Assembly (NCBI GenBank): GCA_000743035.1
Contig: CP008936.1
Location: 1,140,001 to 1,172,000 of the forward strand
Source of the DNA: Candidatus Paracaedimonas acanthamoebae
GTDB lineage: Bacteria > Pseudomonadota > Alphaproteobacteria > Caedimonadales > Caedimonadaceae
Direction of reading: 5' to 3'
Length of the DNA stretch: 32,000 bases
This document shows positions 3,626-31,982 of this stretch, piece by piece. Each line of letters begins with the position of its first letter. Positions within the stretch are counted from its first letter, which is position 1. Made by a program: the position numbers and the translations under genes. The notes under the pieces are model-generated. The model had not been told where the DNA came from. It made no database searches and saw only the letters and a program-made list of their open reading frames with translations.

Positions 3626-3750
3626 AAGGGGGGTGACTTGTAAGTCTTTAAGCATCCCTGTTTTCTTTTAGTATCTAAGGCTTTCTCCCCAATTCGCCTT
3701 GAAGAACTTTTTGGAGACTATGGCAGCCCCCTGCTGCCCTTACTAAATGT
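3626..3750 (-). ncRNA. candidate small RNA or MITE-like element, copy 1 (paralogue of 31870..31982)
   Basis: The reverse complement of 3626-3750 aligns at roughly 70% identity with 31870-31982. Shared blocks are TTTAG.TA.GG.AGC.GGGGGCTGCCA, GGGGAG..AGC.TTAGATA, AAAACAGGGA.G.CTTAAAGA.TTA and TCACCCCC. On the minus strand TTGATA (3780-3775), a 16-nt spacer and TATATA (3758-3753) lie just upstream. The element sits ~75 nt upstream of the LysR ORF on the same strand. Confidence 0.3.
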
Positions 3751-4039
3751 AGTATATAAGAATCATTTTAAAAATATCAAGTAAAAAGTTATTGATTTTA
3801 TTGTATTATACCTTATTTCTTGCGATAAAAGATTTATATCTTATTTTTTAAAAAATTAATGTATCGTCAATCAATTGGTAAGGTATTGTTAAAATTATAT
3901 TAATAGTTTGTTAACTTTTTAGCGTAATGTACTATTGGTTAGCTCTTATGCATATTGTTCCATATAAAACTTAACTCTAAGAGAAAATCCGTCTATCTTG
4001 TGGTTGATTAGACATTAATGGGAGGCACGACGATTACTC

Positions 4040-17272: not shown

Positions 17273-20200
17273 TTAAAGATGACTTATTTTAATCCGGCGA
17301 ACCCAAGCCTGCCAATCTCGCGCGCCTAAATCTGATTCAAAAGATAATAACTCTTTCACAGTTTTCTCACAGATTGATATATCAGGCACAATGAGTTCTT
17401 GGTTCATGGATAAGACCAAACACTGAGTTTTACAGGCTTGTTGAAGATGGTAGGTATAAAATAGCGCCTCTTGGATTGTCTTCCCACAAGTTAAAGAACC
17501 ATGATTCCTCATGAGCAAGACATATTTATCTTGTAAATCATCGACAAGGGATTCTCCTTGGCTTCCATTAAGGGCTAACGAATTATAAGAATGATAGGTA
17601 ATCTGATTATAAAAATGCAAAGCCCATTGACTCAGCGGTTGCAAACCTTTTTTAAGCGCCGAAACAGCCACAATCTCAGGGGTATGGATATGAAAAATGG
17701 CATTAATATCAGGGCGCTTCTGATAGATAGCCCCATGAATAACATAGCCTGTTTTATTATATTGATACTCCGATCCTTCTAAAATTTCCCCATCAAAAGC
17801 AACCCGCAACAAACACTCAGGCGTTACTTCTTCAAAACAAAGACCAAACGGATAGATATAATATGCGCAACCATCTTCTGCACGTAAAGATAAGTGCGTA
17901 TAGGTATGGTCATCAAGCCCTAAGTAAGCAAGGATTTGATAGGCATAGGCGAGATCTCTTCTCAAAGTCATCTTCTGGTTCCTGCATTCTTCTCTACTTG
18001 CTTTGTAAGTATCATAAGCAATAAATAATTCTAAGGGAAAAAGGTACTCAAGTTGACCATCACGATAGAGTTCTGCGATTTCATTCGCACCTAACCCACC
18101 AAGTGTTCCTGCTACAATACTTCTGATCATCCCTTGAAGAGTGTCTTGAAGTCGAGCACCTCCAATTGTTGCATTTAATGCCCCTGAGACTCCCGCACGA
18201 ACCATATTGCTCTTCAAATGCTGCTGCCATCCTTCAGGTTGCTTGGGAAGATTAAACGTCCCACTTAGCTCATGCATCAACCCCGCACTGGCCATATTGA
18301 TGATGAACGATCTGGCAAACTCAGATGAGGTAAGAGCCTTCAGGTTCCCTGTCTGCACAAGAGACGAGGCCGCTTGGCTACTTATCGTCGAGAATCCTGC
18401 ATTGGTGACGGCAACACCCAACGAGGATAAACTCACTGCAGGCACCACGGTTGCTGTGCCGGTCGCTGCCACGGCTGGCACCATCCCAAACGCGGACTCC
18501 GCAAGCGCATTCATAAGCCCTGATGCCCACCCATAGGTTAAAAGACCTGCAGCGAGTCCCACCACCATCGCAAGGGCTTGATTCCCGCCTGGGCGATGGC
18601 CCACACAGAGATCATACAGCTCTTGACGAGGCGCCGGACGCGTAAGGTCAACATCTGGCGCTTCAGTGATCAACTCAGTTCGCACCTCAGGCCGATGACC
18701 TTGAATCTTCCCTTGCGCCTTCAACACAACCTTGCCAGGCATCGTGAGGGTGTTCGGGACCTGAATCTCTTGAGAGCCACCCCGCTCCCAAATCGCTCGC
18801 TTCTTATTATAAAGCTCTGTCTTTTGCGGCTGCATCACGCTGGCGTCTTCAACCGTCAGATCTCTCTTCGCCTCAATCAGAGCAGACCCCTTCTTCCCCT
18901 CCATCTCAACCCCCACCAGATGAATATCCTGATGAGAGAAAAGATGGATTGGCCCTTGCGAGAGGACCTTTGGCCGCACAACCCTATAACTTGGCCGCAT
19001 CCCTTCCTTGCGCATCCCGCGGCAACTCGTCGAATCCTCCATTAATGACCTCGTGATCAAAGGCGAAAGGTGCATCTTCTTTTGAGTCTCTGGCGACCAG
19101 CCTCCTTCCCCAACGATAAGGGTGACGCCTTGAGCAAACAAGGACTGAAGCTCTCTGACTTTCTCATACCCGGCAAAGATCTCTTGGATCTCTTTGGGAT
19201 CCTTCAAAACCCTGCCATATTTATAAAGGCCACTCACCTCCTCTGGAAGCGCTTCTGATAGGGTCACTGTCTGCTTCTTGATCTCCTTCTTCCTCTTCAC
19301 ACGACCCCAAACATTCTTCCGCTTCCACATCTTCTTCATCTCATGCGTCTCGGACCATGTGTGGTGCTGACGTTGAATCGCAAGATGCCCAACATCCTCA
19401 ATCAGCAGCTCTGTGTGAAGGGTTCCTGTCGTCAATAAGTCTTCAATATCTAACCACAAGATTTTTGACTTCATCTCACCAAGATCAATGTTGGCTTGCT
19501 CGGCATGAAGATCGAACTGATCCACCCATAAATCCCCCCCAGGTTGGGAAACATACTGAAACTTTTTAGGAAGCTTTGGCGCCTCTTTCTCCTTTTTCTT
19601 AAAAAACCCTATCAGCTTTGTCGAGGCTCCTTCTCTTATGAAAGGCTTGGGCGTTTGCTCGACACAATCCACCTGCTTTGTCACCTTCAAGGTCCCTGTC
19701 GTCAGAGTTCCTTTCTTGGCGATCAGGCGAGAGCGATCAAAATGCGTATGAGACCCTTTCTTCCCCAACAGATAGGCTTCCTTCTCTATGATTTGCGCGA
19801 GGTGATCACGGACATGAGGATCATGATAGGAAGGCGGCGTAATCAAATAAGAGCGCAAGGCTTGCCGATCATACTGCCCTTCAGGAAGGCTAAAAAGGAT
19901 CGGCTCATTCAGCTTCAGCGCCATCTCTTTCGGCAATGAGGATTGAAGGCCTTGGAATAAATGGGGGCCCCGCTCAATCAACGCTTGAGAAGGCGTATTC
20001 GCGGGCAAACCCAAAAGCTTCGGATTGTCAAGAAAAGGCTTAAGGTAAGGGAACAGATCCGCTCCATTTTGAATCACCTTGCGATGCAAAGAAAGGTAAT
20101 CTGGACATTCAGGTGTCAATGGCACATAGCCGATATTCTGCTGAAACGCCTCAATAAGAGCCTGTCCCTCAGCAAAGAAAGGAAGAACAAACGGAAGCTT

Positions 20201-23200
20201 CTCTGATCCTTTCGGCCCTAAAATCAGCCGTTTGCTTTTTTGAAGCTCTTCTTCCAAAGGATACTTAATGGGAACAAGCGGGATAAATAATGTCGACCCC
20301 TTCCCTGTCGAATCCAGCTTCACAAGGCTGGAAGACGCTCCCAAAGATAAAGGCATGACGGGCTGATAAGGAATGGCACGGCCAGACCGGCCAACCGTCT
20401 GCACCGTGAGCCCTTTTTCAAAAATAATGAGGAGCTTCGAGCCAATCATCTTTCCTTGAACTAAGGCTTCCTTTGCTCCAGTAAAGGCAATTCCCTGGCT
20501 TCCTTCCAGCTGAGGAAGGATTGAATAAAACCCATCCCTTTCAATCTCAATGGGCGAATCCCACGTAAAATAATCATCAATCGTTTTCTTTTTAGGACGT
20601 TTCGGGAACGCCTTATTCCACCGTTCATTTTGGAGAAGTTTTAGAATGTTTTTATTTTCCCATCCTCGGCGGGTTAAATCGGAGCATCTGGCCGGATGTA
20701 AAATCTCATAAGGCGTCTTATCAAGATGATAAATAATTCCTGACTTAAAGTGAAACACCGCCTCTATTTGATCAATAAATTCTTTCCCAACAATAGCTCC
20801 AGAGGCTAAAATAGATCCTCCATAGTTCCTTCCTTTCTGAATATCAAACCTTATATGGCCATTCACCTTGAAGCTCGGCGCTCTTCCTTGAGCAAGGCAA
20901 TAATCAATCCAATAAGGCGGAGAAAGACCTTCACCCACGCGCTGAACAGCTGGAATGAAATGATTAAAGAGAGCCCCCCTTATCGTCGCATTGCCCTTCC
21001 AAACCGCCACTGACGTCCCTGAAAAAGAACTCTCTTGATGGGCCACAACTTCCAAATGCTCATCCGCAACCACAATATTCCCGCCATGGCCATGGAAGGT
21101 TTGAGCCTCAAGCCTCATCCCCTCATTCGAGACAAATTGACTTTTATTGGGAATATACACGTCATAAGGCGCCTTAATGGCTGGCCCAATCGCATTCCCG
21201 CGGGATGTCTCATAGAATACCTTCCTTTTAATCCATCGCCCTAACGTAATGTCTTGCTCTGCCTTGATGTGAAAGAAATGATTGGAGAACACAATCCCTC
21301 GAACAAGGTCAAACGTTTTAGCATCGGTCGCTTCAAAAGAACCCCCACTCTGAATCTTGATCAAGGGAAGAGAAGGCTCTCCAACCCAAATAGCATGCCC
21401 TGAGGCTTTCAGCTGAAGCCCTTTGCCTGATGACAGATTTGCGTGTAGTTTTAAAGTTTGCGCGGTCTTGTGAGGGAGAACTTCAATCTTTATCCCCCCT
21501 TCCACCTCAAGAGGACGCCATAGCTTTCCTCCTTCCCGAAAAATCAGCTTTAAAAGGCCTAAGGTTCTTAAAGAATGGAGACCATAGTTGGCCACTCTCT
21601 CAGGGCACTTGGCCTTAATCTCAATTCCTTCTCGCCCTTCAACAAACGCCCCTCGAAAGTCATGGTAATGTCCCTCGATCTTAAGAACTTTTGCCGCTCT
21701 CACCTCTCCTGTATCTCGTTGCGAGAAGTTCCCCTTTAAAACAATGTTCCCTTGATCGCTGATCATCTTCCCATAGTTATACAGATTCCACAGATCCTCA
21801 TTATAAGAAGACGTTAAAATCTCAATTCCTTTTCTGGCTTCAAGGGTGGTCTTGTTCGTGAGCCCAGGACTTTCAACCCGTAGCTGTCCAAGCAATTTAA
21901 GAGGAATCTCTAATTTTTGGCAAGGCGGCAAGATAAGATGAAGCAACCCTGGGGTTTGCAGACCCTCTGTTTGATAAGAAAGGCCTTTTGCTGTCTTCAA
22001 TAAGACTTTCTGAGTGCCCTCAACAACATCCTTTAAGATAATATCCCCCTTCGTCGAGGTGATCTGAACGTGATCTGCCTGGATCTTTTTTTCAGCCACG
22101 ACGGAAGGCGCTTGGATAAAAAGTTCACCCCTCGTCTGTAGGGGGGGCGTTAACGTGAAGGCCTCTTGAAGAATAAACGAAAGCTTCGGCGTGTTCCCTT
22201 TGATCTCTTTCACCTTAAAAGGTTGTGTCACTGTAATAGAAGGACCTTCCAGGGTTAACTGTGTCTCTGGACTCTCAAGGGGCTGATTCAGTTGCTTATT
22301 GCCATCAAAGGCAAAGGTTACTAAAGGACATCCCTTAAAAACTGTGGGCAAATATTTAAGACCCCACTTATGCAACGTATGTACCTTCAAATGCTCTTTT
22401 ACCGTCATGGGGCCCTGCAAATAATTTAAATGCCCTTTAAAAGAAGCCTGCTGAGAGGTATAAATCTCCCCTTCTGGATAATGGGTGGTATTGCCCTCAA
22501 CATAAAGAGGACCTTCTTCACTCATCAGCTTTCCACGATTCACCACCCCAAACCCTTCTTCAACAAGAGGCGTCAAAAAGGTAAAGCCTTGTTTTGCGCG
22601 TAAGGAGGAAAAATTATAGGCTTGAGGGCCTTTAAAAAGAAAATGACCTAAAAGAGAAAGAGGAGATTTAAAATAAAGCCGAGATGGAGTGCTGATAATC
22701 TCTAAAGTCCCCTCTGTCTGCAGGCCTGAGGTTTGTGGCGTGATATTCGGGCCGCCGTCTTTGTAAGAAAGCCCCCCTCCGACTCGCAACGTGAGACCTT
22801 CAATACCCACAGCCCTTTCCTTCAACGTGATCTGACCCGGACTCTCAACTTGCAAGGTGTTATGGGCAAATACCTCTTTCTCTGAGCTCACCGATTGGCC
22901 CACAATCGAGATATCTTGCTTGCCGATAACGGTTCCTTTCAGCACAACAGGCCCTGAGGCTGATATTTTAAGGTCCCCCTCAACTTGAAGATCTTGCGTT
23001 GAGGTAAAAGCTGAAGAAGCAATCTCAACCTTTCCCCAAGCCTTGAGGGAAGTGGATAAAGCAGTCCCTGTAAACTTTAAGAAAGGTGTGTGAGCTTCCG
23101 TGATGGTCGCCTCTAAATGCTGTCCGATCTCTAACGACGGTCCTTCTAAGGAAAGAGGTCCTAACGTTTTAATGTCTTGTGTGAAGGTTGCAGGCTCTTG

Positions 23201-24580
23201 AAACACAAGCTTTAAGGCTTTCTCGGTCTTCAACTTTTGAGGATCATAGGTAAATCCTTGCTTGCTCTTGATCGTAAAAGCTGATTGAGGGTAAAGGTCC
23301 CCTTGCACCACATGCGTCTCACCTTCCATCTCAACGCCTTGATAGGCCCAAAGAAGTCCTTTTGTATGCTGAACATTCCCTTGAAGAATCACTTTCCCCT
23401 CTTCCGAGTGTAAAACGGCTTCATTGAGAATGGAGGGTGCTTTAAAGTGAACTGTTCCTTTGCCACTCATCCCCCCAAGGTTCTTTATAAGAGCAGCTTC
23501 GGCGGTTAAAGAACCTTTAAGGATAAGAGGATCTGAGAAAGTTAAAGGAGAGGTTGTTGAGATCAGCTCAAGCTTCTTAAATTCCGTCAAGCCCTTAAAA
23601 TCACATCCTTCAAAGTTTATGGCTTCAAGGTGGAGATGATCCCCCTGCAAATGAGGAAAAGTGCTGAGACCTTGGTGGGTCTTCACGTGAATCTTGTGAG
23701 CCTCAACCAAAGAAGAGGGATGCGAGATCATCTCCTTCCCTTCATAGGCAAACTGGCCTTCTTTCATCCTGAGCTGAGACTGGGAAGTCCGATGATCAAG
23801 GACCCGGCCATTTCTAAAGGTAAGACGCTTAACCCCTTTAATCTGATGATCATTCATCAGGTTATTCCCATGTAAATCAGCCGTCCCATCTTCTTTAAAT
23901 TTTAAAGTCCCTTGGTTTAAAAACGTCCCTTCATGAAGGTGGAGCTCTTGCACATTGAGGGTGCTGCTCCCCTCAATCTTAAAATCTCCATGTACAGCTA
24001 AAGTCTCAACATCAATCCCCTGTAACTCTTTCTGCAAATCTAAAGAAGCCATCGCCCGACTCACAACCCTTGGCGCACACGTCACAAGGCCTTTCACTTG
24101 AATCCCATCCTCAATAATAATGGCGCCCTCATTCTCGAGCCCAACTGTGGAGTTCTTCTGTCCTAAACCATCAAGCAATAATTTAATGTAAAGAGTGTTG
24201 TTGTCTTCCCCTTTAGGGCTTTTCAGGACCTGAATAGACTTCAAAAGAGCAGGATGGACAAACTGATAAACCTTCCCTTTCCAGCGATAAAAAGTTTGAA
24301 GCTGATCTTGGCTTTCTCGAAAGACCCAATCACAGTCCTTAAACTCTTCTCGTAATTTAGCACTCTCTTTTGAAAGGCTTATCGTAGAATGGGGAAAAGG
24401 TTTAGAAACATACGACCCTCCTTGCAAGCGAGCTTCTTGGAGGTCTGCTTGAATCGCTCCCAACCCCTCATGCGCCCACACAACACCTAAAAATATCTGC
24501 TGATAAATCAAAATATAGGTCAGAAAGATGCGACCCACATCACGCAATAATCCCAAAATCTTTGGCACACAAAATCTCAT
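17273..24580 (-). CDS. giant (2,435 aa) FhaB/CdiA-like beta-helical protein with a DUF637-like pretoxin region and a C-terminal class II aldolase/adducin-head domain
   Basis: Uninterrupted 7.3-kb ORF with GGGAGG 4 nt before the ATG and a hydrophobic N-terminus ([19 protein letters not shown]). The body is repetitive and G/L/K/T-rich. An FhaB-like block [21 protein letters not shown]...[13 protein letters not shown] lies at about nt 20,000-20,190. The Ala/Gly/Ser-rich DUF637-like segment spans nt 18,041-18,577 and ends in [17 protein letters not shown]. The last 232 aa (nt 17,276-17,971) match class II aldolase/adducin ([57 protein letters not shown]). Confidence 0.85.
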
Positions 24581-24940
24581 GCAACCTCCCTTTGCAACCT
24601 CAAAACCTCTCTGTCCCCTGCCTGTTCTCTCTTTTTATTATTATTTTACGTCTCTAAGCAGAGATCCCCTCAATCGCCCTTCCTCCAAACCTTCAATCAT
24701 CAATAAATAGACGACCAAGCTCTTTTAATCTATTACCCAACCAAAATGTCTCTTTCAAACTTTTTTATTCCTTTGGGACAATTTAGTCTCAACTCGCTCC
24801 CTCAAGATAAACAAACTAAAAATAGGAGAAAAGACCTCATAAAATCTAAAACTGGCTCTTTCGCTTTTCTCCCCTTTTCCGTATAAGCTCTTAGAATAAG
24901 CTATATGTACGCCGTGGTTTTTTCTCCCTCATTACACACC

Positions 24941-25735
24941 TTTCCCGCACGATGAGGACTCTTCTCTGGCACCTATTCACACCTTCTGGTTGCTTGAGAT
25001 CCCCGGCACAAGGCCGGGGATGACCGTATGGGTGATAGCCCTGAAGCTCATCAGTTTTCATTCCTTTGCTGTCAACCATTTTTTCTTCCTTTCTTTATTC
25101 ATTTTCATCTCTGCTCAGTCCTCACTAATGAGATCCAAGTTCTTCCATCTTCGTCATCCTAGGCCTTGTGCCTAGGATCTCAAGCGACCGTAAGATCTCA
25201 CCTACCACTACTCGATGTCTTCGGCCTTTCCTGGATCCCCGCCTCCGCGGGGATGACAATAGGAGTGTGCAGGAATGATACAAAAAAGTGTTTGTTGCCA
25301 TCCGTGCCTTTACTTTGCCTCTCCTCTTCCAGATCGTGCCTGTGACACACAAGTACGCCTCTCGGGTACCTTTACCACCTTCAGGCTGCCTGAGATCCCC
25401 GCCTCCACGGGGATGACCGTGTGGTCGATATGTTTCAAGTTCATCAGTTTTAATTCTTTTGTTTTCAATCATTTTTTCTTCCTTCCTTTAAGTTGTTTTA
25501 ATTTTCACTCAGACCTTACCTGTGAGTCCCAAGTTCCTTTGTATTTGTCATCCTCGGCCTTGTCCCGAGAATCTCAAGTAACCGATAGGTCTCACTCATC
25601 ACCTTTCGATGCCTTTCAGTCTTTCTGGATCCCCGCCTCCACGGGGATGACCCTTATAAATTTCAAACGTTGTCATTCTTGAACTTGTCCCGAGAATCTC
25701 AAGCGACCTGAAGATCTCTCCTGTCACCAACTTTT
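24941..25735. repeat. hairpin-repeat array 1 (modules X1-Y1-X2-Y2-partial Y3)
   Basis: Two ~400-bp units, each with three parts. The first is an ~85-nt X module ending in CTGAGATCC[stem-loop-stem]GGATGAC. The second is a ~128-nt T/C-rich spacer. The third is a Y module: GTCATCC[stem-loop-stem]GGATCTCAAG, then ~55 nt, then CTGGATCCCCGCCTCC(A/G)CGGGGATGAC. Hairpins lie at 25002-25020, 25161-25179, 25237-25253, 25398-25413, 25553-25569 and 25631-25646. Confidence 0.9.
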
Positions 25736-25770
25736 ACCTTTCCGCCATCAAATGCCCATTTCTTTCCTCT

Positions 25771-26007
25771 TTTCATCAGGCAAAGAGAGAGCCTTCGCTC
25801 AAAAAGAGCGTTAAAAGGTTTATTTCTTTAATAAATTGAGTTTGTGCTCCCTTTATTATTATTTTTATTGAGATGGATATAGAGACTTTAAGAAGAGGAC
25901 TTATCAAGGTTTATTTAACCTCAATAAGGGGAAGAGATTCGTCTCTAACCATCTACAACCAGACTATCATATCATGATACAAAAATCAAGAAAATTCAGC
26001 ACAAATA
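25771..26007 (+). repeat. conserved array tail, copy 1 (paralogue of 30859..31077)
   Basis: Starts TTTTCATCAGGCAAAGAG.G.G.C.TT.GCTCAAAAAGAGCGTT and ends TCTCT(A/G)ACCATCTAC...CATATCATGATACAAAAATCAAGAAAATTC. Both blocks are nearly identical in the two copies. The middle is diverged but alignable. Confidence 0.8.
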
Positions 26008-26212
26008 TCAAAAAATAAATACTTAATATCCATAGCTTATAAAATAATTATTTGGGTCCATAGTGACCTCTTATTCTTGATCACTTCATCATCCAAGCTT
26101 GGTGGTATCTTACTTACAGTGGTGAGCTTGTCCATTCTTCCACCATCGATAAAGGTTTTTTGATAGACAAAAAATTAAAAGTTTTCGCCTATCAAAAGCT
26201 GTGTTTGAACCC

Positions 26213-26246
26213 CCTATAAAAAAAGGTTAAGCAATTGCTTAACCTT
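26213..26246 (-). terminator. rho-independent terminator (perfect 26-nt palindrome) downstream of the 26424..26903 gene
   Basis: The palindrome is AAAGGTTAAGCAATTGCTTAACCTTT. On the minus strand it is followed by TTTTTTTAT. On the plus strand the U tract is weaker, so it is mainly a minus-strand terminator. Confidence 0.65.
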
Positions 26247-26423
26247 TTTAACATTCTTCTTTTCCACCTTAGCGTAACAATTACTCTATTTCTTCAACTT
26301 TTATTAAAGAGGTTGAAAAGGTGTTTGAAATTTTTACAGAATATAACGTAAAATCAACGATCAACATTTCAGGTACAAAGAATTGATATTGACCATAATA
26401 CCAACCATTCCCAGGTATTGAAT

Positions 26424-26903
26424 TCAACATAGACGTGGGCTTTGATTCGTACATTGATATCCCTTGAAACCCTGTAAGCCCGGTGCTTGAAAATACTTTA
26501 AAATTTCTGACGCACTCTTAATCGCAAAATCATGAGGCTTAAAAGTCTCTTCTCTCCATCCAATAGGAACTGCGGCAAGTTGATAATATTGACCAGCATC
26601 AACATCTTCATAAACTGTGAATTTTGCAAAAGGTAAAGTATAATTTTGGCGCATTTTCTGCGCAAAATCTTTGACTGCCTCTTCTGTCTTTATTTTACTG
26701 AAATCGTCTGCATATCGCTTCGCTTGCTTAAATATTGGTGAATCTAAAAAAATACGAGGATATTCTTCTACGCGACAAAGATTCTCCAAGACTTTATGTA
26801 TCGAACCCCCCTTGAGATCTGTTTCAATCAAACTCGCCTCACTGAGGTTAGAGAAAAGTAAACTTCCCAAAGCAATCTTTAAAAGCAAAAACTTCTTCAT
26901 CAT
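26424..26903 (-). CDS. secreted hypothetical protein (159 aa from MMKKF)
   Basis: The track ORF extends to 26987, but the internal start gives a classic signal peptide, MMKKFLLLKIALGSLLFSNLSEA|S. No recognisable domain. Confidence 0.6.
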   Translation of the reverse strand: MMKKFLLLKIALGSLLFSNLSEASLIETDLKGGSIHKVLENLCRVEEYPRIFLDSPIFKQAKRYADDFSKIKTEEAVKDFAQKMRQNYTLPFAKFTVYEDVDAGQYYQLAAVPIGWREETFKPHDFAIKSASEILKYFQAPGLQGFKGYQCTNQSPRLC

Positions 26904-27014
26904 ATGATTCCTCTTAGTTATTGTGCTTATTAGTAATATAAGAGTTTGCTTGCGCTTTATAAGCGTCATTCTAAAAAATAAGTCCAATATCTTCTTTGCT
27001 CCTTGGTGTGGCCC

Positions 27015-28520: not shown

Positions 28521-29639
28521 TTAAGCCGCGAATGAAATTACTTTAATCGCTTCAAAATTGATCACATCACCCCCCACTCGCTTTGTGGTATAAAATTCCA
28601 CATACGGTTTTGAGCTAAACGGATCCCGCATAATGCGCATGCCCGCGCGATCAACAATTTGATAGCCTTCTTTAAAGTTCCCAAAAACGATGGATTTAGA
28701 TGCCGTTCCAGCCACTAAAGCCGGCATGTCTTCAGCCAAGACAACGGGATAACCAAGCAACGTTGGACTGATCTCATCAGCTAAACCTGGCTGCCATAGA
28801 TATTGGTGATTTTGATCTTTGAGTTTGCGGACCATGGCATGAGCGGAGCGTGACATCAACCACACAGCCCCTTTTTGGTACTCAGGCTTTAAAGCATTCA
28901 TGGTCTCAATTAAGATATCCGCCGCATTTTCATCTCAGAAAGCCCCATCCTTCCCTGTCTTAATATGTTCAAGCTTACCCCACTCCCATTGAGCGCGATC
29001 TTTCGTTTCATAGCTTAAAAAGCCTTTAGGCTTATTATCACCATCCCCATGGATAAAGGCATGATTTTCCACCTGAGCGAGTTTTGTGGCAATCCGACCC
29101 GCAAGCCATGACTCAACATCAACCCGCGCATCATCCAACAGTTTCTGGGTTGCGCGCGGCTTTGCATAGAGTTCATGCACGGGAATGCGCAACTTCATCA
29201 AATTTGGCGTCTTTGTTTCTTTCCGCTCTGCTGTCTCAGTCACCCACCCCACTTCAGCGCCTTCTTTATCCAACAAGAGCTCAATCGCACTTGCTGAAAT
29301 TGTCATGACGGATGAGATGGCACGAATCGGCGATAAATCCTGTAAATTTCGTCCAATGCGATCTGCAACCACTTGAGGAATAAGATAGCCCCCATCACCC
29401 TCAACCCCAGCGGTTAAGCTTTTTGTCTCCGCGCATTCCAGCTGTTTTGATTCTCCTTGCCGAACATAGTTGAGTAATGCTTTCTTTTGTTCCGTTTCTC
29501 CGTAAGAAAGTGAACCACTCGTCTCAAACGCCGGTCGTTTGGAAGCCACCTCAAGATGACGGAATCGTTCTTCTTGGCTCGCTTTAAATTCGCCAAAGGC
29601 GTGTGTTAATGTATCAATTGCTTCATTGACTGTATTCAT
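28521..29639 (-). pseudogene. HK97-family major capsid protein (RcGTA g5-like) interrupted by a single in-frame TGA
   Basis: Track ORFs 28935..29639 and 28521..28901 are in the same frame, separated only by TGA at 28937-28935 (...GKDGAF*DENAADILIETMNALKPEYQKGAVWLMSRS...). Capsid motifs present: DGGYLIPQ, SPIRAIS, GWVTETAERKETKTP, PVHELYAKPRATQKLLDDARVDVESWL, ENHAFIHGDGDNKPKGFL, LWQPGL, GYPVVLAEDMP and FYTTKRVGGDVINFEAIK. Confidence 0.8.
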
Positions 29640-29934: not shown

Positions 29935-30790
29935 CGTTCCTCTCCCGTAGAGTGAAGACATCCTGGCGCCTCTCAGCATCCTCTGGTTGCCTGAGATCCT
30001 TGGGACAAGCCCAAGGATGACAGGATAAGGTGGTCATTCTCGGGCGTGTCCCGAGAATCTCAAGTAACCGATAGGTCTCACCCATCACCACTCGATGCCT
30101 GTCTTCTTCACACTGCGCCTCTCACGCACAATGAGGACTCTTCTCTGGTACCTTTCAGCATCTCTTTGTTGCCTGAGATCCCCGCCTCCGCAAGGATGAC
30201 AAAGAAGAAGCCAGGGCTGACAAAAGAAAGGATTTTTCCTCTATCGGAGCCTTTCCATGACTTTCCTCGTTTCAAAAGGTAAAACCAGAAAAATTGTCCT
30301 CTCGTTGTCACTAACTTCACGCCTTTTCTTTTCCAACTCGTGCCTCTCACACACGGTTGAGGACTTCCTGTCCGTCCCCTTATTTGTCATTCCCGCGAAG
30401 GCGGGAATCCATCCTCTGTTTTTCGCAAGCGTGCCTCTCAGGCGCACTTGGGACCTTCTGGCACCTATGCACATCCTCAGGTTGCCTGAGATCCCCGGCA
30501 CAAGGCCGGGGATGACCGTGTGGTCGATATGTCTCAAGTTCATCAGTTTTAATTCTTTTGTTTCCAATCATTTTTTCTTCCTTCCTTTATTGTTTTCATT
30601 TCTATTTAGTCTTCACCAATGAATTTCAAATCCTTACATTCTCGTCATCCTAGGCCTTGTGCCTAGGATCTCAAGCGACCTGCAGGTCTCTCCTGTCACC
30701 ATTTGTTGTCCTTCGGTCCTTCCTGGATCCCCGCGTCTCGCCTCGACGTAGACAGGATCTCAGGGAGAACAAGAGAGAGGCTAGGAATGA
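29935..30790. repeat. hairpin-repeat array 2 (X3-Y4-X4-X5 variant-X6-spacer-Y5)
   Basis: Same module family as array 1. Hairpins: CCTTGGG-ACAAG-CCCAAGG (29998-30016), TTCTCGGG-CGTGT-CCCGAGAA (30038-30058), a decayed CCCCGCCTCCGCAAGG (~30180-30195), GTCATTCCCGCGAAGGCGGGAATCC (30386-30410), CCCCGGC-ACAAG-GCCGGGG (30493-30511) and CCTAGGC-CTTGT-GCCTAGG (30651-30669). Confidence 0.9.
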
Positions 30791-30858
30791 CAAACCAACA
30801 CCTTTCAATCCTCCTTATTTTCCACCAAACCCTCTCCTTTTCCGTGCCCAACTCGGCC

Positions 30859-31077
30859 TTTTCATCAGGCAAAGAGGGGGCATTTGCTCAAAAAGAGCGT
30901 TCATTGGCTTTTAATGAGCTTTTAGGGCTCAATTTTTAATCGGACGGATGGAGGGAATTTTTGAAGAGGATTGAGAGCTTTTTTAAAGGCCCGCAAGGAA
31001 GTAAATTTCATCTCTGACCATCTACTAATAGGCTACCATATCATGATACAAAAATCAAGAAAATTCGCCCCAAATAT
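30859..31077 (+). repeat. conserved array tail, copy 2 (paralogue of 25771..26007)
   Basis: Same start and end blocks, in the same orientation, as the tail of array 1. Confidence 0.8.
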
Positions 31078-31316
31078 GTATTATTTTATTGTTTTAAATC
31101 AAGTAGTTGAAAGAATATTTTAACTTACCTAAATCTTCCAGATAATATCGATAGTTAGGCGGTTTCGTTCTGCCACCTAAACATTTAAGAATTAAATGAT
31201 GTTTTAGAACTTAAAGCTCTTTTTTTGAAGAGCATCCCCCTTAAGATAAAATATTCCTAAGTTTCTCTATAAGGTCCTTTGCATAACCATAAAAGCCTTT
31301 TCCGGCATCTCCTAAA

Positions 31317-31678
31317 CTCCGCTTTCGCGGAGATAACAAGATGAAATCCGAGGATAACAAGAAAGAATGCCTGAATATGCGCTTTTACTTTTCCTCTCCT
31401 CTTCCAGCTCATGCCTGTCACACAATTAGAAGCTTCTGCTACCTTTCACAGCATCCTCTGGTGGCCTGAGACCCCGTCACAAGGCCGGGGATGACGATGG
31501 AGACGTTGCTTATCCTATGTTTTCCTTTCCAACATCCGTTCTTATGTTTTCTTTCTCCCCCAACCTGTGTCATCCTCGGGCTTGTCCCGAGAATCCCAAG
31601 CGACCGGAAGACCTATCCCGGCCCCAATCAATGCCTTTCCTTCAGTATTCTCTGGATCCCCGCCTGTGCGAGGATGAC
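31317..31678. repeat. hairpin-repeat array 3 (extra hairpin + X7 + short spacer + Y6)
   Basis: Contains CTCCGC-TTTC-GCGGAG (31317-31332) and an X module ending in a decayed hairpin, GAGACCCCGTCACAAGGCCGGGGATGAC (~31468-31495). A ~74-nt spacer follows. The Y module is GTCATCCTCGGGCTTGTCCCGAGAATCCCAAG (31569-31600) ... CTGGATCCCCGCCTGTGCGAGGATGAC (~31652-31678). Confidence 0.85.
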
Positions 31679-31834
31679 CTAACAGAGCTTTTTTGTCTCT
31701 AACAACACCATGTTTATTTCTTATTCATCACGCTTTTTTGACATTTTAGGATTACCTATGATGAAAAAAATGAGATATAAAACTTTTATCGCAACAAACG
31801 AGATAAAAAGCAATAAAATCAAGCACTTTTATAC

Positions 31835-31869: not shown

Positions 31870-31982
31870 AGATAGGTAGCTGGGGGCTGCCAAAGCGTTC
31901 ACTAAAGATCCTAGCAAGTTAGGGGAGGGAGCTTTAGATAAAAAAACAGGGAAGGCTTAAAGATTTAACATCACCCCCACCA
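31870..31982 (+). ncRNA. candidate small RNA or MITE-like element, copy 2 (paralogue of 3626..3750 minus strand)
   Basis: Roughly 70% identity to the reverse complement of 3626-3750. GGGGG (31882-31886) and CCCCC (31974-31978) could close a long stem. The local hairpin GGTAGC-TGGGG-GCTGCC (31875-31891) differs from copy 1 (GGCAGC-AGGGG-GCTGCC) by a change that stays paired (G-U) only in this transcription sense. Confidence 0.3.

What the first reader, a model, noticed from the sequence alone, without database searches (positions are those of the whole stretch)
29935..30790. Array 2 shuffles the same modules and recruits a different, widely known palindrome
The second array uses the same building blocks in a different order: X3, Y4 (without the third hairpin), X4 (decayed hairpin), X5, X6, the 127-nt spacer and Y5 (third hairpin disrupted).

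In X5 the X-type leader (GTGCCTCTCACACACGGTTGAGGACTTCCTG...) is joined to GTCATTCCCGCGAAGGCGGGAATCC instead of the usual hairpin. That palindrome and its translations (IPAFAGMT, RLRGNDK, VIPAKAGIH; compare track ORFs 30241..30567, 30380..30571 and 30257..30622) recur as spurious ORFs in many proteobacterial genomes, as far as I remember.

The mosaic suggests that the hairpin is an exchangeable cassette inside a conserved scaffold. That points to a dedicated, recombination-driven or template-driven process rather than plain tandem duplication.
Basis: partly seen in the sequence, partly recalled or inferred. Interest (0 to 1): 0.65.

Follow-up and report, generated by a model that had tools for sequence, protein, structure and literature searches.

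The report
Mosaic array of Ssn-nuclease hairpin repeats
This stretch is a real cluster of short DNA hairpin repeats of a recently described family (NTS/SRM, the cutting sites of small Ssn single-strand DNA nucleases). The repeats are built from leftover ends of nuclease gene cassettes, so the stretch is a new example of a known kind and not a new mechanism.

Summary

The interpretation needs correcting.
- Every hairpin in the three arrays belongs to one oriented family: GTC, then AT…stem-loop…AT, then C.
- The "different, widely known palindrome" (30386-30408) matches the Neisseria NTS consensus at 26 of 28 positions and the dRS3 pattern exactly.
- It is also the flipped version of the arrays' own 8-bp/4-nt hairpin, differing by one compensatory base pair and one loop base.
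- NTS/SRM hairpins are the ssDNA substrates of Ssn GIY-YIG nucleases (PMC11893778).

In related Holosporales genomes ("Caedibacter" MAGs), a 94-aa GIY-YIG gene sits exactly between such hairpins.
- Window module Y5 equals one of these cassettes minus 339 nt.
- The 3' part of X equals the region upstream of the gene.

X and Y are therefore ends of ssn cassettes, and the window copies lack the gene. The arrays resemble BIMEs.
- Hairpins alternate in orientation.
- They are joined by short or long conserved linkers.
- Module content differs between related genomes at the same locus.

Hairpin type follows scaffold type closely, with two exceptions (X2 and X4), so free cassette exchange is not supported. 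Whether the units move is untested.

The parts
29935..30021 (-). Module X3. It consists of an X leader and an X 3' arm ending in a type-A SRM hairpin. The SRM reads GTCATCCTTGGGCTTGTCCCAAGGATCTCA on the minus strand (29992-30021).
   Evidence: The same hairpin stem is present at the orthologous position in L113.
30022..30032 (.). 11-nt short linker between the facing ends ATGAC and GTCAT of X3 and Y4.
   Evidence: X3 and Y4 together fold as a long inverted repeat as ssDNA (-24 kcal/mol, z = -4.4). This is the source of a spurious sub-threshold mir-616 hit in Rfam.
30033..30103 (+). Module Y4 (the Y-left arm). It is a type-A SRM hairpin, GTCATTCTCGGGCGTGTCCCGAGAATCTCA, followed by a 41-nt arm. 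There is no third hairpin. With X4 it forms a 168-nt GTCAT…ATGAC unit (30033-30200).
   Evidence: (90% identical to Y2). Its ends align with the ends of the ssn cassette in L063.
30106..30200 (-). Module X4. It is an X leader plus X 3' arm that carries a decayed type-B hairpin (30178-30200 on the minus strand, 2 stem mismatches).
   Evidence: The ssDNA fold is -2 kcal/mol, no better than shuffles.
30201..30330 (.). Conserved linker with no hairpin. It is collinear with L106 327-467.
   Evidence: (77% identity over 146 nt).
30331..30385 (+). X5: a truncated X leader. It matches the X family for about 45 nt, lacks the X 3' arm, and abuts the NTS-like hairpin.
   Evidence: Alignment A5. The same arrangement is seen in L106 622-716.
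30385..30412 (+). NTS-like SRM hairpin, TGTCATTCCCGCGAAGGCGGGAATCCAT (type B, 8-bp stem and 4-nt loop). It is the left end of the unit 30386-30516.
   Evidence: It matches the NTS consensus at 26 of 28 positions and is the only exact match to the published SRM motif. It also fits the dRS3 pattern ATTCCC-N8-GGGAAT. The ssDNA fold is -8.9 kcal/mol, z = -4.1. It is widespread in other replicons.
30421..30516 (-). Module X6. It is a full X (leader plus 3' arm) ending in a type-A SRM hairpin (30487-30516 on the minus strand).
   Evidence: The ortholog in L113 differs in the stem by a compensatory C-G to T-A change.
30517..30643 (.). It is conserved in array 1 (25025-25152 and 25418-25546) and in L106 and L074. 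In L113 a 20-nt short linker takes its place at the orthologous position.
30644..30790 (+). Module Y5. It runs GTCAT, type-A hairpin, Y-left arm, Y trailer, then a disrupted type-B hairpin ending in ATGAC. It is the ssn-less counterpart of the ssn cassette in L106.
   Evidence: Its left 55 nt and about 75 nt of its trailer (30699-30771) align with L106 935-1412, leaving out a 339-nt block that holds the GIY-YIG gene. The same empty junction is seen in L074. The third hairpin is not stable.
30845..31080 (-). Conserved 'down block', a paralog of 25755-26030. It has a promoter-like TTGATT-17-TAGCCT on the minus strand, pointing into the array, and a short conserved hairpin.
   Evidence: It is present at the orthologous site in L113-L115 and, in L063 and L106, lies upstream of ssn in the same direction.
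31381..31678 (.). Array 3. It holds one X (31381-31495, hairpin decayed) and one Y (31569-31678, with a type-A SRM on the plus strand and a type-B SRM on the minus strand).
24930..25745 (.). Array 1, in the order X1, 127-nt linker, Y1, X2, 129-nt linker, Y2, 20-nt linker, Y3. X1-linker-Y1 is 82% identical to X6-linker-Y5.

Best explanation
The region is a BIME-like cluster of Ssn-related-motif (SRM, NTS-type) hairpin repeats in a Holosporales-like alphaproteobacterial chromosome.

Structure of the repeats
- Each hairpin is an oriented ssDNA stem-loop: GTC, then AT…AT, then C.
- This is the kind of site that small single-domain GIY-YIG nucleases of the Ssn family bind and cut a few bases 5' of the GTC, and only when the DNA is single-stranded.
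- The modules X and Y are not free-standing scaffolds. They are the two flanks of an IS-like cassette with the layout GTCAT-hairpin, Y-left arm, ssn gene on the opposite strand, X 3' arm or Y trailer, hairpin-ATGAC.
- The window copies are gene-less miniatures of that cassette, GTCAT…ATGAC units of 105-168 nt, together with fragments of such units.

How the array was probably built (inferred)
- The ssn ORF was lost by internal deletion between short direct repeats (TGTCACCT / TGTCGCCA).
- Units inserted or joined next to existing hairpins.
- Units recombined through the shared hairpin core of about 45 nt.
- Hairpin symmetry was maintained by intrastrand templated correction.
- These processes would give alternating orientations, short (11-20 nt) or long (127 nt) conserved linkers, and occasional hairpin-type swaps such as X2 and X4.

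Shown versus inferred
- Shown: family membership by sequence, homology of the modules to ssn cassette ends, filled and empty cassette pairs, and array polymorphism at an orthologous locus.
- Inferred: that a cognate Ssn is encoded elsewhere in this genome, that it cuts these sites, and that Ssn or hairpin-directed recombination drives the rearrangements.
For: 1. Sequence family
- All 11 perfect hairpins in the arrays carry GTC 5' and C 3' of the palindrome. With up to 2 stem mismatches allowed, 15 such sites lie in the arrays and 1 elsewhere.
- GTC and the 3' C are the positions PMC11893778 reports as critical for SsnA cleavage and binding.
- X5's palindrome matches NTS (CGTCATTCCCGCGMAVGCGGGAATCYRG) at 26 of 28 positions and matches the published SRM motif exactly. 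Type-A hairpins are 3-5 mismatches from NTSvar.

2. Association with ssn
- A scan of genomes for the type-A hairpin alone brought in 7 loci where a GIY-YIG ORF lies next to the hairpins. The ORF matched Pfam PF01541 at E = 1.8e-16 in the one case scanned (L106). It is 94 aa in L106 and L063, the same size as Nm SsnA.
- The 7 loci are L106 and L063 (Caedibacter MAGs), L056, L086, L031 (Wolbachia), and L017 and L070.

3. Modules are cassette ends
- Y5 aligns with L106 935-1412 on both sides of a 339-nt block that holds the gene.
- The 3' 35 nt of X aligns with the region upstream of the ssn start codon in L063.
- L074 and L106, from the same genome, are an empty and a filled pair with the same junction, TCACC-W-TTCG.

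4. Hairpin structure is maintained
- 5 of 9 stem pairs show double changes.
- The orthologous X6 hairpin differs by a compensatory C-G to T-A change between the window and L113.
- Intact hairpins fold with z = -4 to -6 as ssDNA.

5. Dynamics
- At the orthologous site upstream of the GTA capsid gene, L113, L114 and L115 (flanking genes 77-86% identical at the nucleotide level) hold different module sets.
- The breakpoints lie at the ATGAC and GTCAT ends.
Against: - No ssn or any GIY-YIG gene lies in the 32-kb window, and no transposase does either. The source genome could not be retrieved, so a cognate nuclease in this organism is unproven.
- The published SRM degenerate motif matches only one of the hairpins exactly. 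The others need 1-2 substitutions, and at 2 substitutions the motif is no longer specific.
- PMC11893778 reports that changing the palindrome sequence while keeping the hairpin abolishes Nm SsnA activity. Types A and B may therefore need different enzymes, or some copies may be inert relics.
- Nothing here shows transposition. No clean target-site duplication of a whole unit and no precise empty site for a whole unit was found.
- The covariation set was selected for pairing (at most 1 mismatch), so the 97.6% paired figure is partly circular.
Confidence: 0.7

Rival explanations
1. These are classical REP/BIME elements mobilised by a REP-associated tyrosine transposase (RAYT, the Y1 family related to IS200/IS605).
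For: The organisation resembles BIMEs. Extragenic palindromes alternate in orientation and are joined by short or long conserved linkers. PMC11893778 itself draws this parallel.
Against: In relatives the gene flanked by the repeats is a GIY-YIG nuclease, not a Y1 transposase. No Y1 transposase domain appears in any window ORF scanned. The conserved 5' element is GTCAT, not the GTAG-type head of REPs (the REP feature is from my own knowledge). The loci of relatives were not systematically scanned for RAYTs.
Confidence: 0.06
2. The hairpins act at the RNA level as terminators, attenuators or mRNA stabilisers in the leaders of the capsid gene and the large gene. The resemblance to NTS would then be incidental.
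For: The arrays lie upstream of genes on the minus strand. They also lie downstream of a conserved promoter-like block that points into them.
Against: No T-runs follow the hairpins, and terminator-like sites are not enriched (9 found against 7.1 expected). No Rfam family reaches threshold. The hairpins occur in both orientations. The invariant GTC and C flanks match the DNA-level determinants of Ssn, and PMC11893778 reports that SsnA does not act on RNA.
Confidence: 0.08
3. A dedicated template- or recombination-driven process swaps hairpin cassettes inside otherwise constant X and Y scaffolds.
For: X2 (25395-25417) and X4 (30178-30200) carry hairpin B in an intact X 3' arm that elsewhere carries hairpin A. 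The outer 7 bp of the two stems are identical, which would allow conversion.
Against: Hairpin class and flank class are almost fully congruent (28 of 28 against 1 of 19, p = 4e-12). Stem variants mostly follow X or Y flanks. X5 is a truncated leader abutting the next unit, not a swap, and this arrangement is conserved in another species.
Confidence: 0.1
4. The palindromes are attachment or insertion sites for an IS110/Piv-type recombinase or a filamentous phage, as dRS3 is in Neisseria.
For: The X5 palindrome fits the dRS3 pattern ATTCCC-N8-GGGAAT exactly. PMC11893778 cites work showing that dRS3 is the target of a phage recombinase.
Against: No such recombinase, IS or filamentous-phage gene lies in the window or next to the arrays. 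Most hairpins here are type A and do not fit dRS3.
Confidence: 0.04
5. The array is an assembly artefact of a repeat-rich stretch.
For: The region is repeat-dense, and short-read assemblers can collapse or shuffle such regions.
Against: Independent assemblies of related organisms carry the same modules with the same junctions: X-long linker-Y in L106 and L074, X5-NTS-X6 in L106, and X3, X6, Y5 and the down block in L113. Copies within the window are only 70-90% identical, which is too divergent to be confused during assembly.
Confidence: 0.02

Closest known systems
NTS / SRM repeats and the Ssn (SsnA) GIY-YIG ssDNA nuclease family (PMC11893778, Nat Commun 2025)
   Same: - The hairpin is oriented in the same way, with GTC 5' and C 3' of the palindrome.
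- The X5 copy is a near-canonical NTS. Type-A copies resemble NTSvar (CGTCATACTCGGG-N5-CCCGAGTATC).
- The repeats cluster in intergenic regions.
- In relatives a 94-aa single-domain GIY-YIG gene is bracketed by inverted hairpins, which is the 'NTS-ssnA-NTS' layout.
- The host is a symbiont-type alphaproteobacterium, a group the paper notes as SRM-rich (it names Rickettsia and Wolbachia).
   Different: - No ssn gene lies in this window.
- Here the hairpins are embedded in larger conserved modules (X, Y, and long and short linkers) that are recognisably the flanks of the ssn cassette. The main text of the paper does not describe gene-less miniature units or this mosaic grammar. Its supplements could not be read.
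- Two hairpin classes coexist in one array.
- Holosporales and Caedibacter are not mentioned in the main text.
E. coli-type REP/BIME elements with RAYT transposases
   Same: - Both are extragenic palindromic units in alternating orientation.
- The units are separated by a small vocabulary of short and long linker motifs.
- Both form mosaic clusters that vary between strains.
- In both, the associated enzyme gene is itself flanked by the repeats.
   Different: - The associated enzyme is a GIY-YIG nuclease, not a Y1 (HUH) transposase.
- The conserved head is GTCAT.
- The units here retain about 40-95 nt of cassette-derived arms, not only the palindrome.
Neisseria dRS3 and Correia-type miniature elements (MITEs)
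   Same: - The X5 palindrome satisfies ATTCCC-N8-GGGAAT.
- The units are small, non-coding and bounded by inverted repeats (105-168 nt).
- They are multi-copy and intergenic.
   Different: - Nothing here shows phage integration or target-site duplications.
- The parent of these miniatures is identifiable (the ssn cassette). Correia elements have no known coding parent (from my own knowledge).

Membership tests
SRM/NTS repeats (Ssn-related motifs) | A GC-rich palindrome of about 20-23 nt that forms a stable hairpin in ssDNA | tested here: met
   There are 11 perfect hairpins with 8-9-bp stems in the arrays. Their ssDNA folds are -8.6 to -11.6 kcal/mol, z = -4 to -6. The decayed copies (X4 and the third hairpin of Y5) fail this test.
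SRM/NTS repeats (Ssn-related motifs) | Oriented, conserved flanks: three nucleotides (GTC) 5' of the palindrome, needed for cleavage, and a C immediately 3', needed for binding | tested here: met
   All array hairpins found by the unbiased search carry gtc…c. In the alignment of 28 copies, G1, T2, C3 and C27 are invariant. The determinants are as reported in PMC11893778.
SRM/NTS repeats (Ssn-related motifs) | Match to the published search motifs (NTS with at most 1 mismatch; SRM degenerate motif) | tested here: inconclusive
   The X5 copy matches the SRM motif exactly and matches NTS with 2 mismatches, both at the outermost positions. With 1 substitution allowed, the SRM motif matches 5 sites in the arrays and 1 outside. 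At 2 substitutions the motif loses specificity (31 hits against 23.6 in shuffles).
SRM/NTS repeats (Ssn-related motifs) | Spatial association with an ssn gene (single-domain GIY-YIG, cd10448) | tested here: inconclusive
   This is not met in the window: tblastn finds nothing better than E = 2. It is met in relatives. L106, L063, L056, L086, L031, L017 and L070 have the gene next to the same hairpins. Assignment to cd10448 itself was not testable here; only Pfam GIY-YIG membership and the 94-aa size were checked.
SRM/NTS repeats (Ssn-related motifs) | Strand-specific cleavage of the ssDNA form by the cognate Ssn | not testable with these tools
   This needs biochemistry.
Neisseria dRS3 | The sequence pattern ATTCCC-N8-GGGAAT | tested here: met
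   30389-30408 reads ATTCCCGCGAAGGCGGGAAT. Only this one copy fits. The others have ATCCCC or a type-A stem.
REP/BIME with RAYT | Palindromic units in alternating orientation, joined by a small set of conserved short and long linkers | tested here: met
   The orientation series is R-F-R-R-F-R-F in array 1 and R-F-R-F-R-F in array 2. If the disrupted third hairpin of Y5 is read as a former R site, array 2 ends with a further R. Linkers are 11-20 nt or 127-129 nt and recur in the window and in relatives.
REP/BIME with RAYT | An associated Y1 (HUH) transposase gene flanked by the repeats | tested here: not met
   No such domain is found in the window ORFs scanned. The gene flanked by the repeats in relatives is GIY-YIG.
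MITE (non-autonomous derivative of an IS-like element) | Ends homologous to those of a longer, protein-coding element, with the coding part deleted | tested here: met
   Y5 against the L106 cassette, Y4-X4 against the L063 cassette, and L074 against L106.
MITE (non-autonomous derivative of an IS-like element) | Evidence of transposition: target-site duplications and precise presence/absence of whole units | tested here: inconclusive
   The arrays differ between orthologous loci, with breakpoints at the hairpin ends. No clean empty site or target-site duplication for a whole unit was found. The 8-nt repeat TGTCACCT / TGTCGCCA flanks the ssn block inside Y, which fits either deletion or insertion.
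CRISPR array | Direct repeats of one orientation separated by unique spacers | tested here: not met
   The repeats alternate in orientation and the 'spacers' are themselves conserved repeats.

The most novel reading that the evidence does not exclude
The ssn cassette (hairpin, GIY-YIG gene, inverted hairpin) may be a genuine autonomous mobile element that moves through single-stranded DNA using a GIY-YIG nuclease in place of a transposase. The X and Y units would then be its MITEs, inserting next to existing hairpins and so building BIME-like arrays. This would be a new mechanistic class of prokaryotic transposable element, parallel to IS200/IS605-RAYT/REP but with unrelated chemistry.
Probability: 0.22. 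Interest if true: 0.75.

Novelty: new member of a known kind. Interest (0 to 1): 0.4.

Why it matters
- The finding links an otherwise puzzling repeat mosaic in a protist-symbiont-type alphaproteobacterium to a nuclease and repeat system that was described only in 2025.
- It adds something the main text of that paper leaves open. Here the repeats are visibly the ends of the nuclease cassette, both gene-filled and gene-less versions exist, and the arrays turn over quickly at one orthologous locus.
- That makes the question of whether SRM repeats spread by an Ssn-dependent, IS-like process directly testable, using filled/empty pairs and cleavage assays on two natural hairpin classes.
- In practical terms, it explains a class of spurious ORFs (…IPAFAGMT…, …RLRGNDK…, …VIPAKAGIH…) that genome annotators should mask.

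Tried and rejected
- **Exact-protein look-ups.** The look-up of encoding contigs for three window proteins found nothing on record, so the source genome could not be walked.
- **Genome scan.** Genome-wide copy number and the presence of ssn in this organism therefore remain unknown.
- **Rfam.** At gathering thresholds only a tRNA was found. At permissive thresholds only sub-threshold miRNA-like hits appeared, caused by the X3/Y4 inverted repeat. An RNA-family explanation was dropped.
- **Tandem Repeats Finder.** It found nothing in the arrays, so plain tandem duplication was dropped.
- **Terminator scan.** There was no enrichment.
- **MAFFT.** It misplaced the 339-nt gap between Y5 and L106. 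The alignment was redone with an affine-gap pairwise aligner.
- **Published SRM regular expression.** It proved too strict for type-A hairpins and too loose at 2 substitutions. I relied instead on the oriented-flank criterion.
- **NCBIfam.** It has no specific model for the GIY-YIG protein. The PDB holds only distant UPF0213 relatives.
- **Paper supplements.** The supplements of the Ssn paper, including its species lists, are not held.
- **Literature search.** A search for repeat descriptions in Holosporales genomes found none.
- **Consensus RNA fold of the 'down block'.** It gave no convincing structure beyond one 5-bp hairpin with a single covarying pair.
- **Other families considered.** CRISPR was rejected as an explanation (see the membership test). 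Rickettsia palindromic elements were considered from memory only: all copies here are intergenic, but no sequence comparison was run.
Full report
**Context.** The window looks like an alphaproteobacterial chromosome.
- It encodes Dus, NtrY, an NtrX-like regulator, TrkA, two-component proteins, and a gene-transfer-agent-like head and tail cluster: capsid, head-tail connector and tail completion protein.
- Its closest DNA relatives in public genomes are "Caedibacter" MAGs (MKUV01 and MKUU01) and other Holosporales or Alphaproteobacteria MAGs.
- Three repeat clusters lie in non-coding DNA: array 1 at 24930-25745, array 2 at 29935-30790 (the finding), and array 3 at 31381-31678.

**Observation.**
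- X3, Y4, X4, X5, X6, a linker of exactly 127 nt, and Y5 are all there.
- The hairpins of X4 and the third hairpin of Y5 are decayed. As ssDNA they fold no better than shuffles, whereas intact hairpins have z-scores of -4 to -6.
- The quoted peptides occur in the named ORFs.
- The oriented hairpin pattern occurs 9 times in the window, all in the arrays, against 0.00 expected.
- TRF finds no tandem array here.

**One hairpin family, two classes.** An unbiased search for perfect GC-rich hairpins shows that all array hairpins share one oriented layout, GTC | AT…stem-loop…AT | C.
- Class A has a 9-bp stem and a 5-nt loop, for example GTC-ATCCTAGGCCTTGTGCCTAGGAT-C.
- Class B has an 8-bp stem and a 4-nt loop, for example GTC-ATCCCCGCGGAGGCGGGGAT-C. 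This is the "third hairpin" of Y, and X2 and X4 carry it too.
- The X5 palindrome, GTC-ATTCCCGCGAAGGCGGGAAT-C, is class B. It has one compensatory C-G to T-A pair and one loop change, and it points in the opposite direction to the usual X hairpin.
- It is therefore not a foreign recruit. The identical 23-mer also occurs in Caedibacter loci L023 and L038.

**What the family is.**
- A full-text search for the sequence led to PMC11893778.
  - That paper defines the Neisseria Transformation Sequence (NTS, CGTCATTCCCGCGMAVGCGGGAATCYRG), a variant (NTSvar, CGTCATACTCGGG-N5-CCCGAGTATC), and a degenerate Ssn-related motif (SRM).
  - It shows that the 94-aa GIY-YIG protein SsnA binds and cuts these hairpins only as ssDNA and only on one strand.
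  - The three bases 5' of the palindrome govern cleavage, and the C just 3' of it governs binding.
- The window hairpins fit this family.
  - The X5 copy matches NTS at 26 of 28 positions and matches the SRM motif exactly. Class-A hairpins are 3-5 mismatches from NTSvar.
  - The GTC and C determinants are invariant in all copies, while 5 of 9 stem pairs covary. That set was selected for pairing, which inflates the paired fraction.
The 32-mer occurs at 87-100% identity in 45 plasmid or secondary-replicon records across alpha-, beta- and gammaproteobacteria.

**X and Y are ends of ssn cassettes.**
- Scanning genomes for the class-A hairpin alone returned seven loci with a GIY-YIG ORF next to the hairpins, 94 aa in L106 and L063.
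- In L063 (Caedibacter sp. 37-49) and L031 (Wolbachia) the gene is bracketed by inverted hairpins in a GTCAT…gene…ATGAC layout.
- Window Y5 aligns with L106 935-1412 on both sides of a 339-nt block that contains the gene. The junction is …CTCCTGTCACC | ATTYGTTG….
- Locus L074, from the same genome as L106, shows the same empty junction.
- The 3' 35 nt of X aligns with the region just upstream of the ssn start codon in L063.
- The natural units are therefore GTCAT…ATGAC elements. They are 25153-25257, 25547-25651, 30033-30200, 30386-30516, 30644-30790 and 31569-31678, 105-168 nt long. They are gene-less miniatures of an IS-like ssn cassette.
- No ssn is present in the window.

**BIME-like grammar and turnover.**
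- Hairpins alternate in orientation.
- Facing ATGAC and GTCAT ends are joined either by short linkers (11-20 nt; 30022-30032 and 25652-25671) or by the conserved 127-129-nt linker.
- At the orthologous site upstream of the capsid gene, metagenome relatives with 77-86% nucleotide identity in the flanking genes carry different sets of modules.
  - L113 has X3 plus a long linker, then X6, a 20-nt linker and Y5.
  - L114 has only two class-B hairpins.
  - L115 has one X.
  - All keep the downstream conserved block.
- Window 30022-30430 (Y4, X4, the linker and X5/NTS) has no counterpart in L113.
- The 127-nt linker between X6 and Y5 is replaced there by 20 nt.
- The orthologous X6 hairpin differs by a compensatory pair.
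- In contrast, X5-NTS-X6-linker-Y5 is collinear at 77% identity with L106, so that sub-arrangement is old.

**Test of the cassette-exchange idea.**
- Across 47 hairpins from the window and Caedibacter loci, class A always has CTCAAG or CTCAGG flanks (28 of 28). Class B has such a flank once in 19 (Fisher p = 4e-12).
- Stem variants largely follow X or Y flanks. CCTAGGC and TCTCGGG go with Y. CCTCGGT, CCTTGGG and nearly all CCTCGGG go with X. CCCCGGC occurs once with each flank type.
- The exceptions are X2 and X4, which carry class B in an intact X arm. The outer 7 bp of the two classes are identical, so occasional conversion is plausible.
- X5 is not a swap. It is a truncated leader followed by the left end of the next unit.

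**Mechanism.**
- Shown:
  - family membership by sequence;
  - homology of the modules to cassette ends;
  - filled and empty cassette pairs;
  - rapid turnover at the orthologous locus.
- Inferred:
  - that an Ssn encoded elsewhere in the genome cuts these sites in ssDNA;
  - that hairpin-directed breakage, recombination between the shared cores of about 45 nt, deletion between short direct repeats (TGTCACCT / TGTCGCCA), and intrastrand correction of palindromes generate the mosaic.
- Whether Ssn acts as a transposase-like enzyme is open.

**Rivals.**
- RAYT-driven REP/BIME: the flanked gene is GIY-YIG and no Y1 transposase domain is found in the window.
- RNA-level elements: there are no terminators and no Rfam family, the hairpins occur in both orientations, and the conserved flanks are DNA-level determinants.
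- IS110 or phage attachment sites: no such genes are present.
- CRISPR: the grammar is wrong.
- Assembly artefact: the same junctions appear in independent assemblies, and the window copies are only 70-90% identical.

All of these rate low.

**Verdict.** It is wrong on two points: the palindrome is not a different one, and hairpins do not exchange freely. This is a new lineage-level example of the SRM/Ssn repeat system with a BIME-like organisation. It is of moderate interest, mainly because it offers clean filled and empty cassette pairs for testing whether Ssn cassettes are mobile.

Noticed in passing
window 25755-26030 and 30845-31080; also L113, L114, L115, L106, L074, L043, L078, L023, L063: A conserved non-coding block of about 250 nt always lies next to the hairpin arrays. 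On the minus strand it has a promoter-like TTGATT-17-TAGCCT followed by the invariant sequence GTAGATGGTCAGAGATGA. At its far end is a 5-bp hairpin (CGCTC-TTTTT-GAGCG) with one covarying pair. In L063 and L106 it lies 0.5-0.8 kb upstream of ssn in the same direction. It may be the promoter and leader of the ssn locus, or an sRNA.
   Followed up: partly
window 18034-27013: Relative L117 joins the homologs of window 18033 and 27014 with only about 130 nt between them. About 9 kb is therefore an insertion in this genome or a deletion in L117. The segment has higher GC (45-55% against 33-40%). It holds most of the 2435-aa ORF, including a DUF637 hemagglutinin-like part, and also array 1, down block 1 and ORF 26424-26987. 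The large ORF runs in frame into a class II aldolase domain, and the DNA encoding that domain (17273-18033) is retained in L117.
   Followed up: partly
window 28902-28934 (minus strand), between ORFs 28935-29639 and 28521-28901: The GTA-type major capsid gene is interrupted by a single in-frame TGA (…GKDGAF*DENAAD…). L113 and L115 have an uninterrupted 372-aa ORF, and L114 has a different premature stop. The cause could be a pseudogene, a sequencing error or read-through.
   Followed up: partly
window 3784-3849 with 31765-31830, and 3718-3738 with 31875-31895: Two segments 28 kb apart form inverted repeats: 66 nt at 83% and 21 nt at 86%. The copy at 31.8 kb contains a promoter-like TTGCAT…TATGAT. 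These may be duplicated regulatory or leader regions.
   Followed up: no
L017, L070 and many other Bacteroidaceae MAG loci: The class-A hairpin pattern, and ssn homologs 47-51% identical to the Caedibacter protein, also occur in gut Bacteroidaceae MAGs. The hairpin-nuclease pair therefore crosses phyla with little change.
   Followed up: partly
L031 5272-5568 (Wolbachia endosymbiont of Cantharis cryptica): The ssn homolog, bracketed by inverted class-A-like hairpins, carries an internal stop codon (…LIKRI*EHK…). This copy appears to be a pseudogene.
   Followed up: no
L106 1412-1640 (minus strand): A small ORF of about 75 aa (MMNIDEQKTNFTKNHGSQTGLGK…) lies between the down block and ssn in Caedibacter sp. 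38-128. It was not compared with the window.
   Followed up: no
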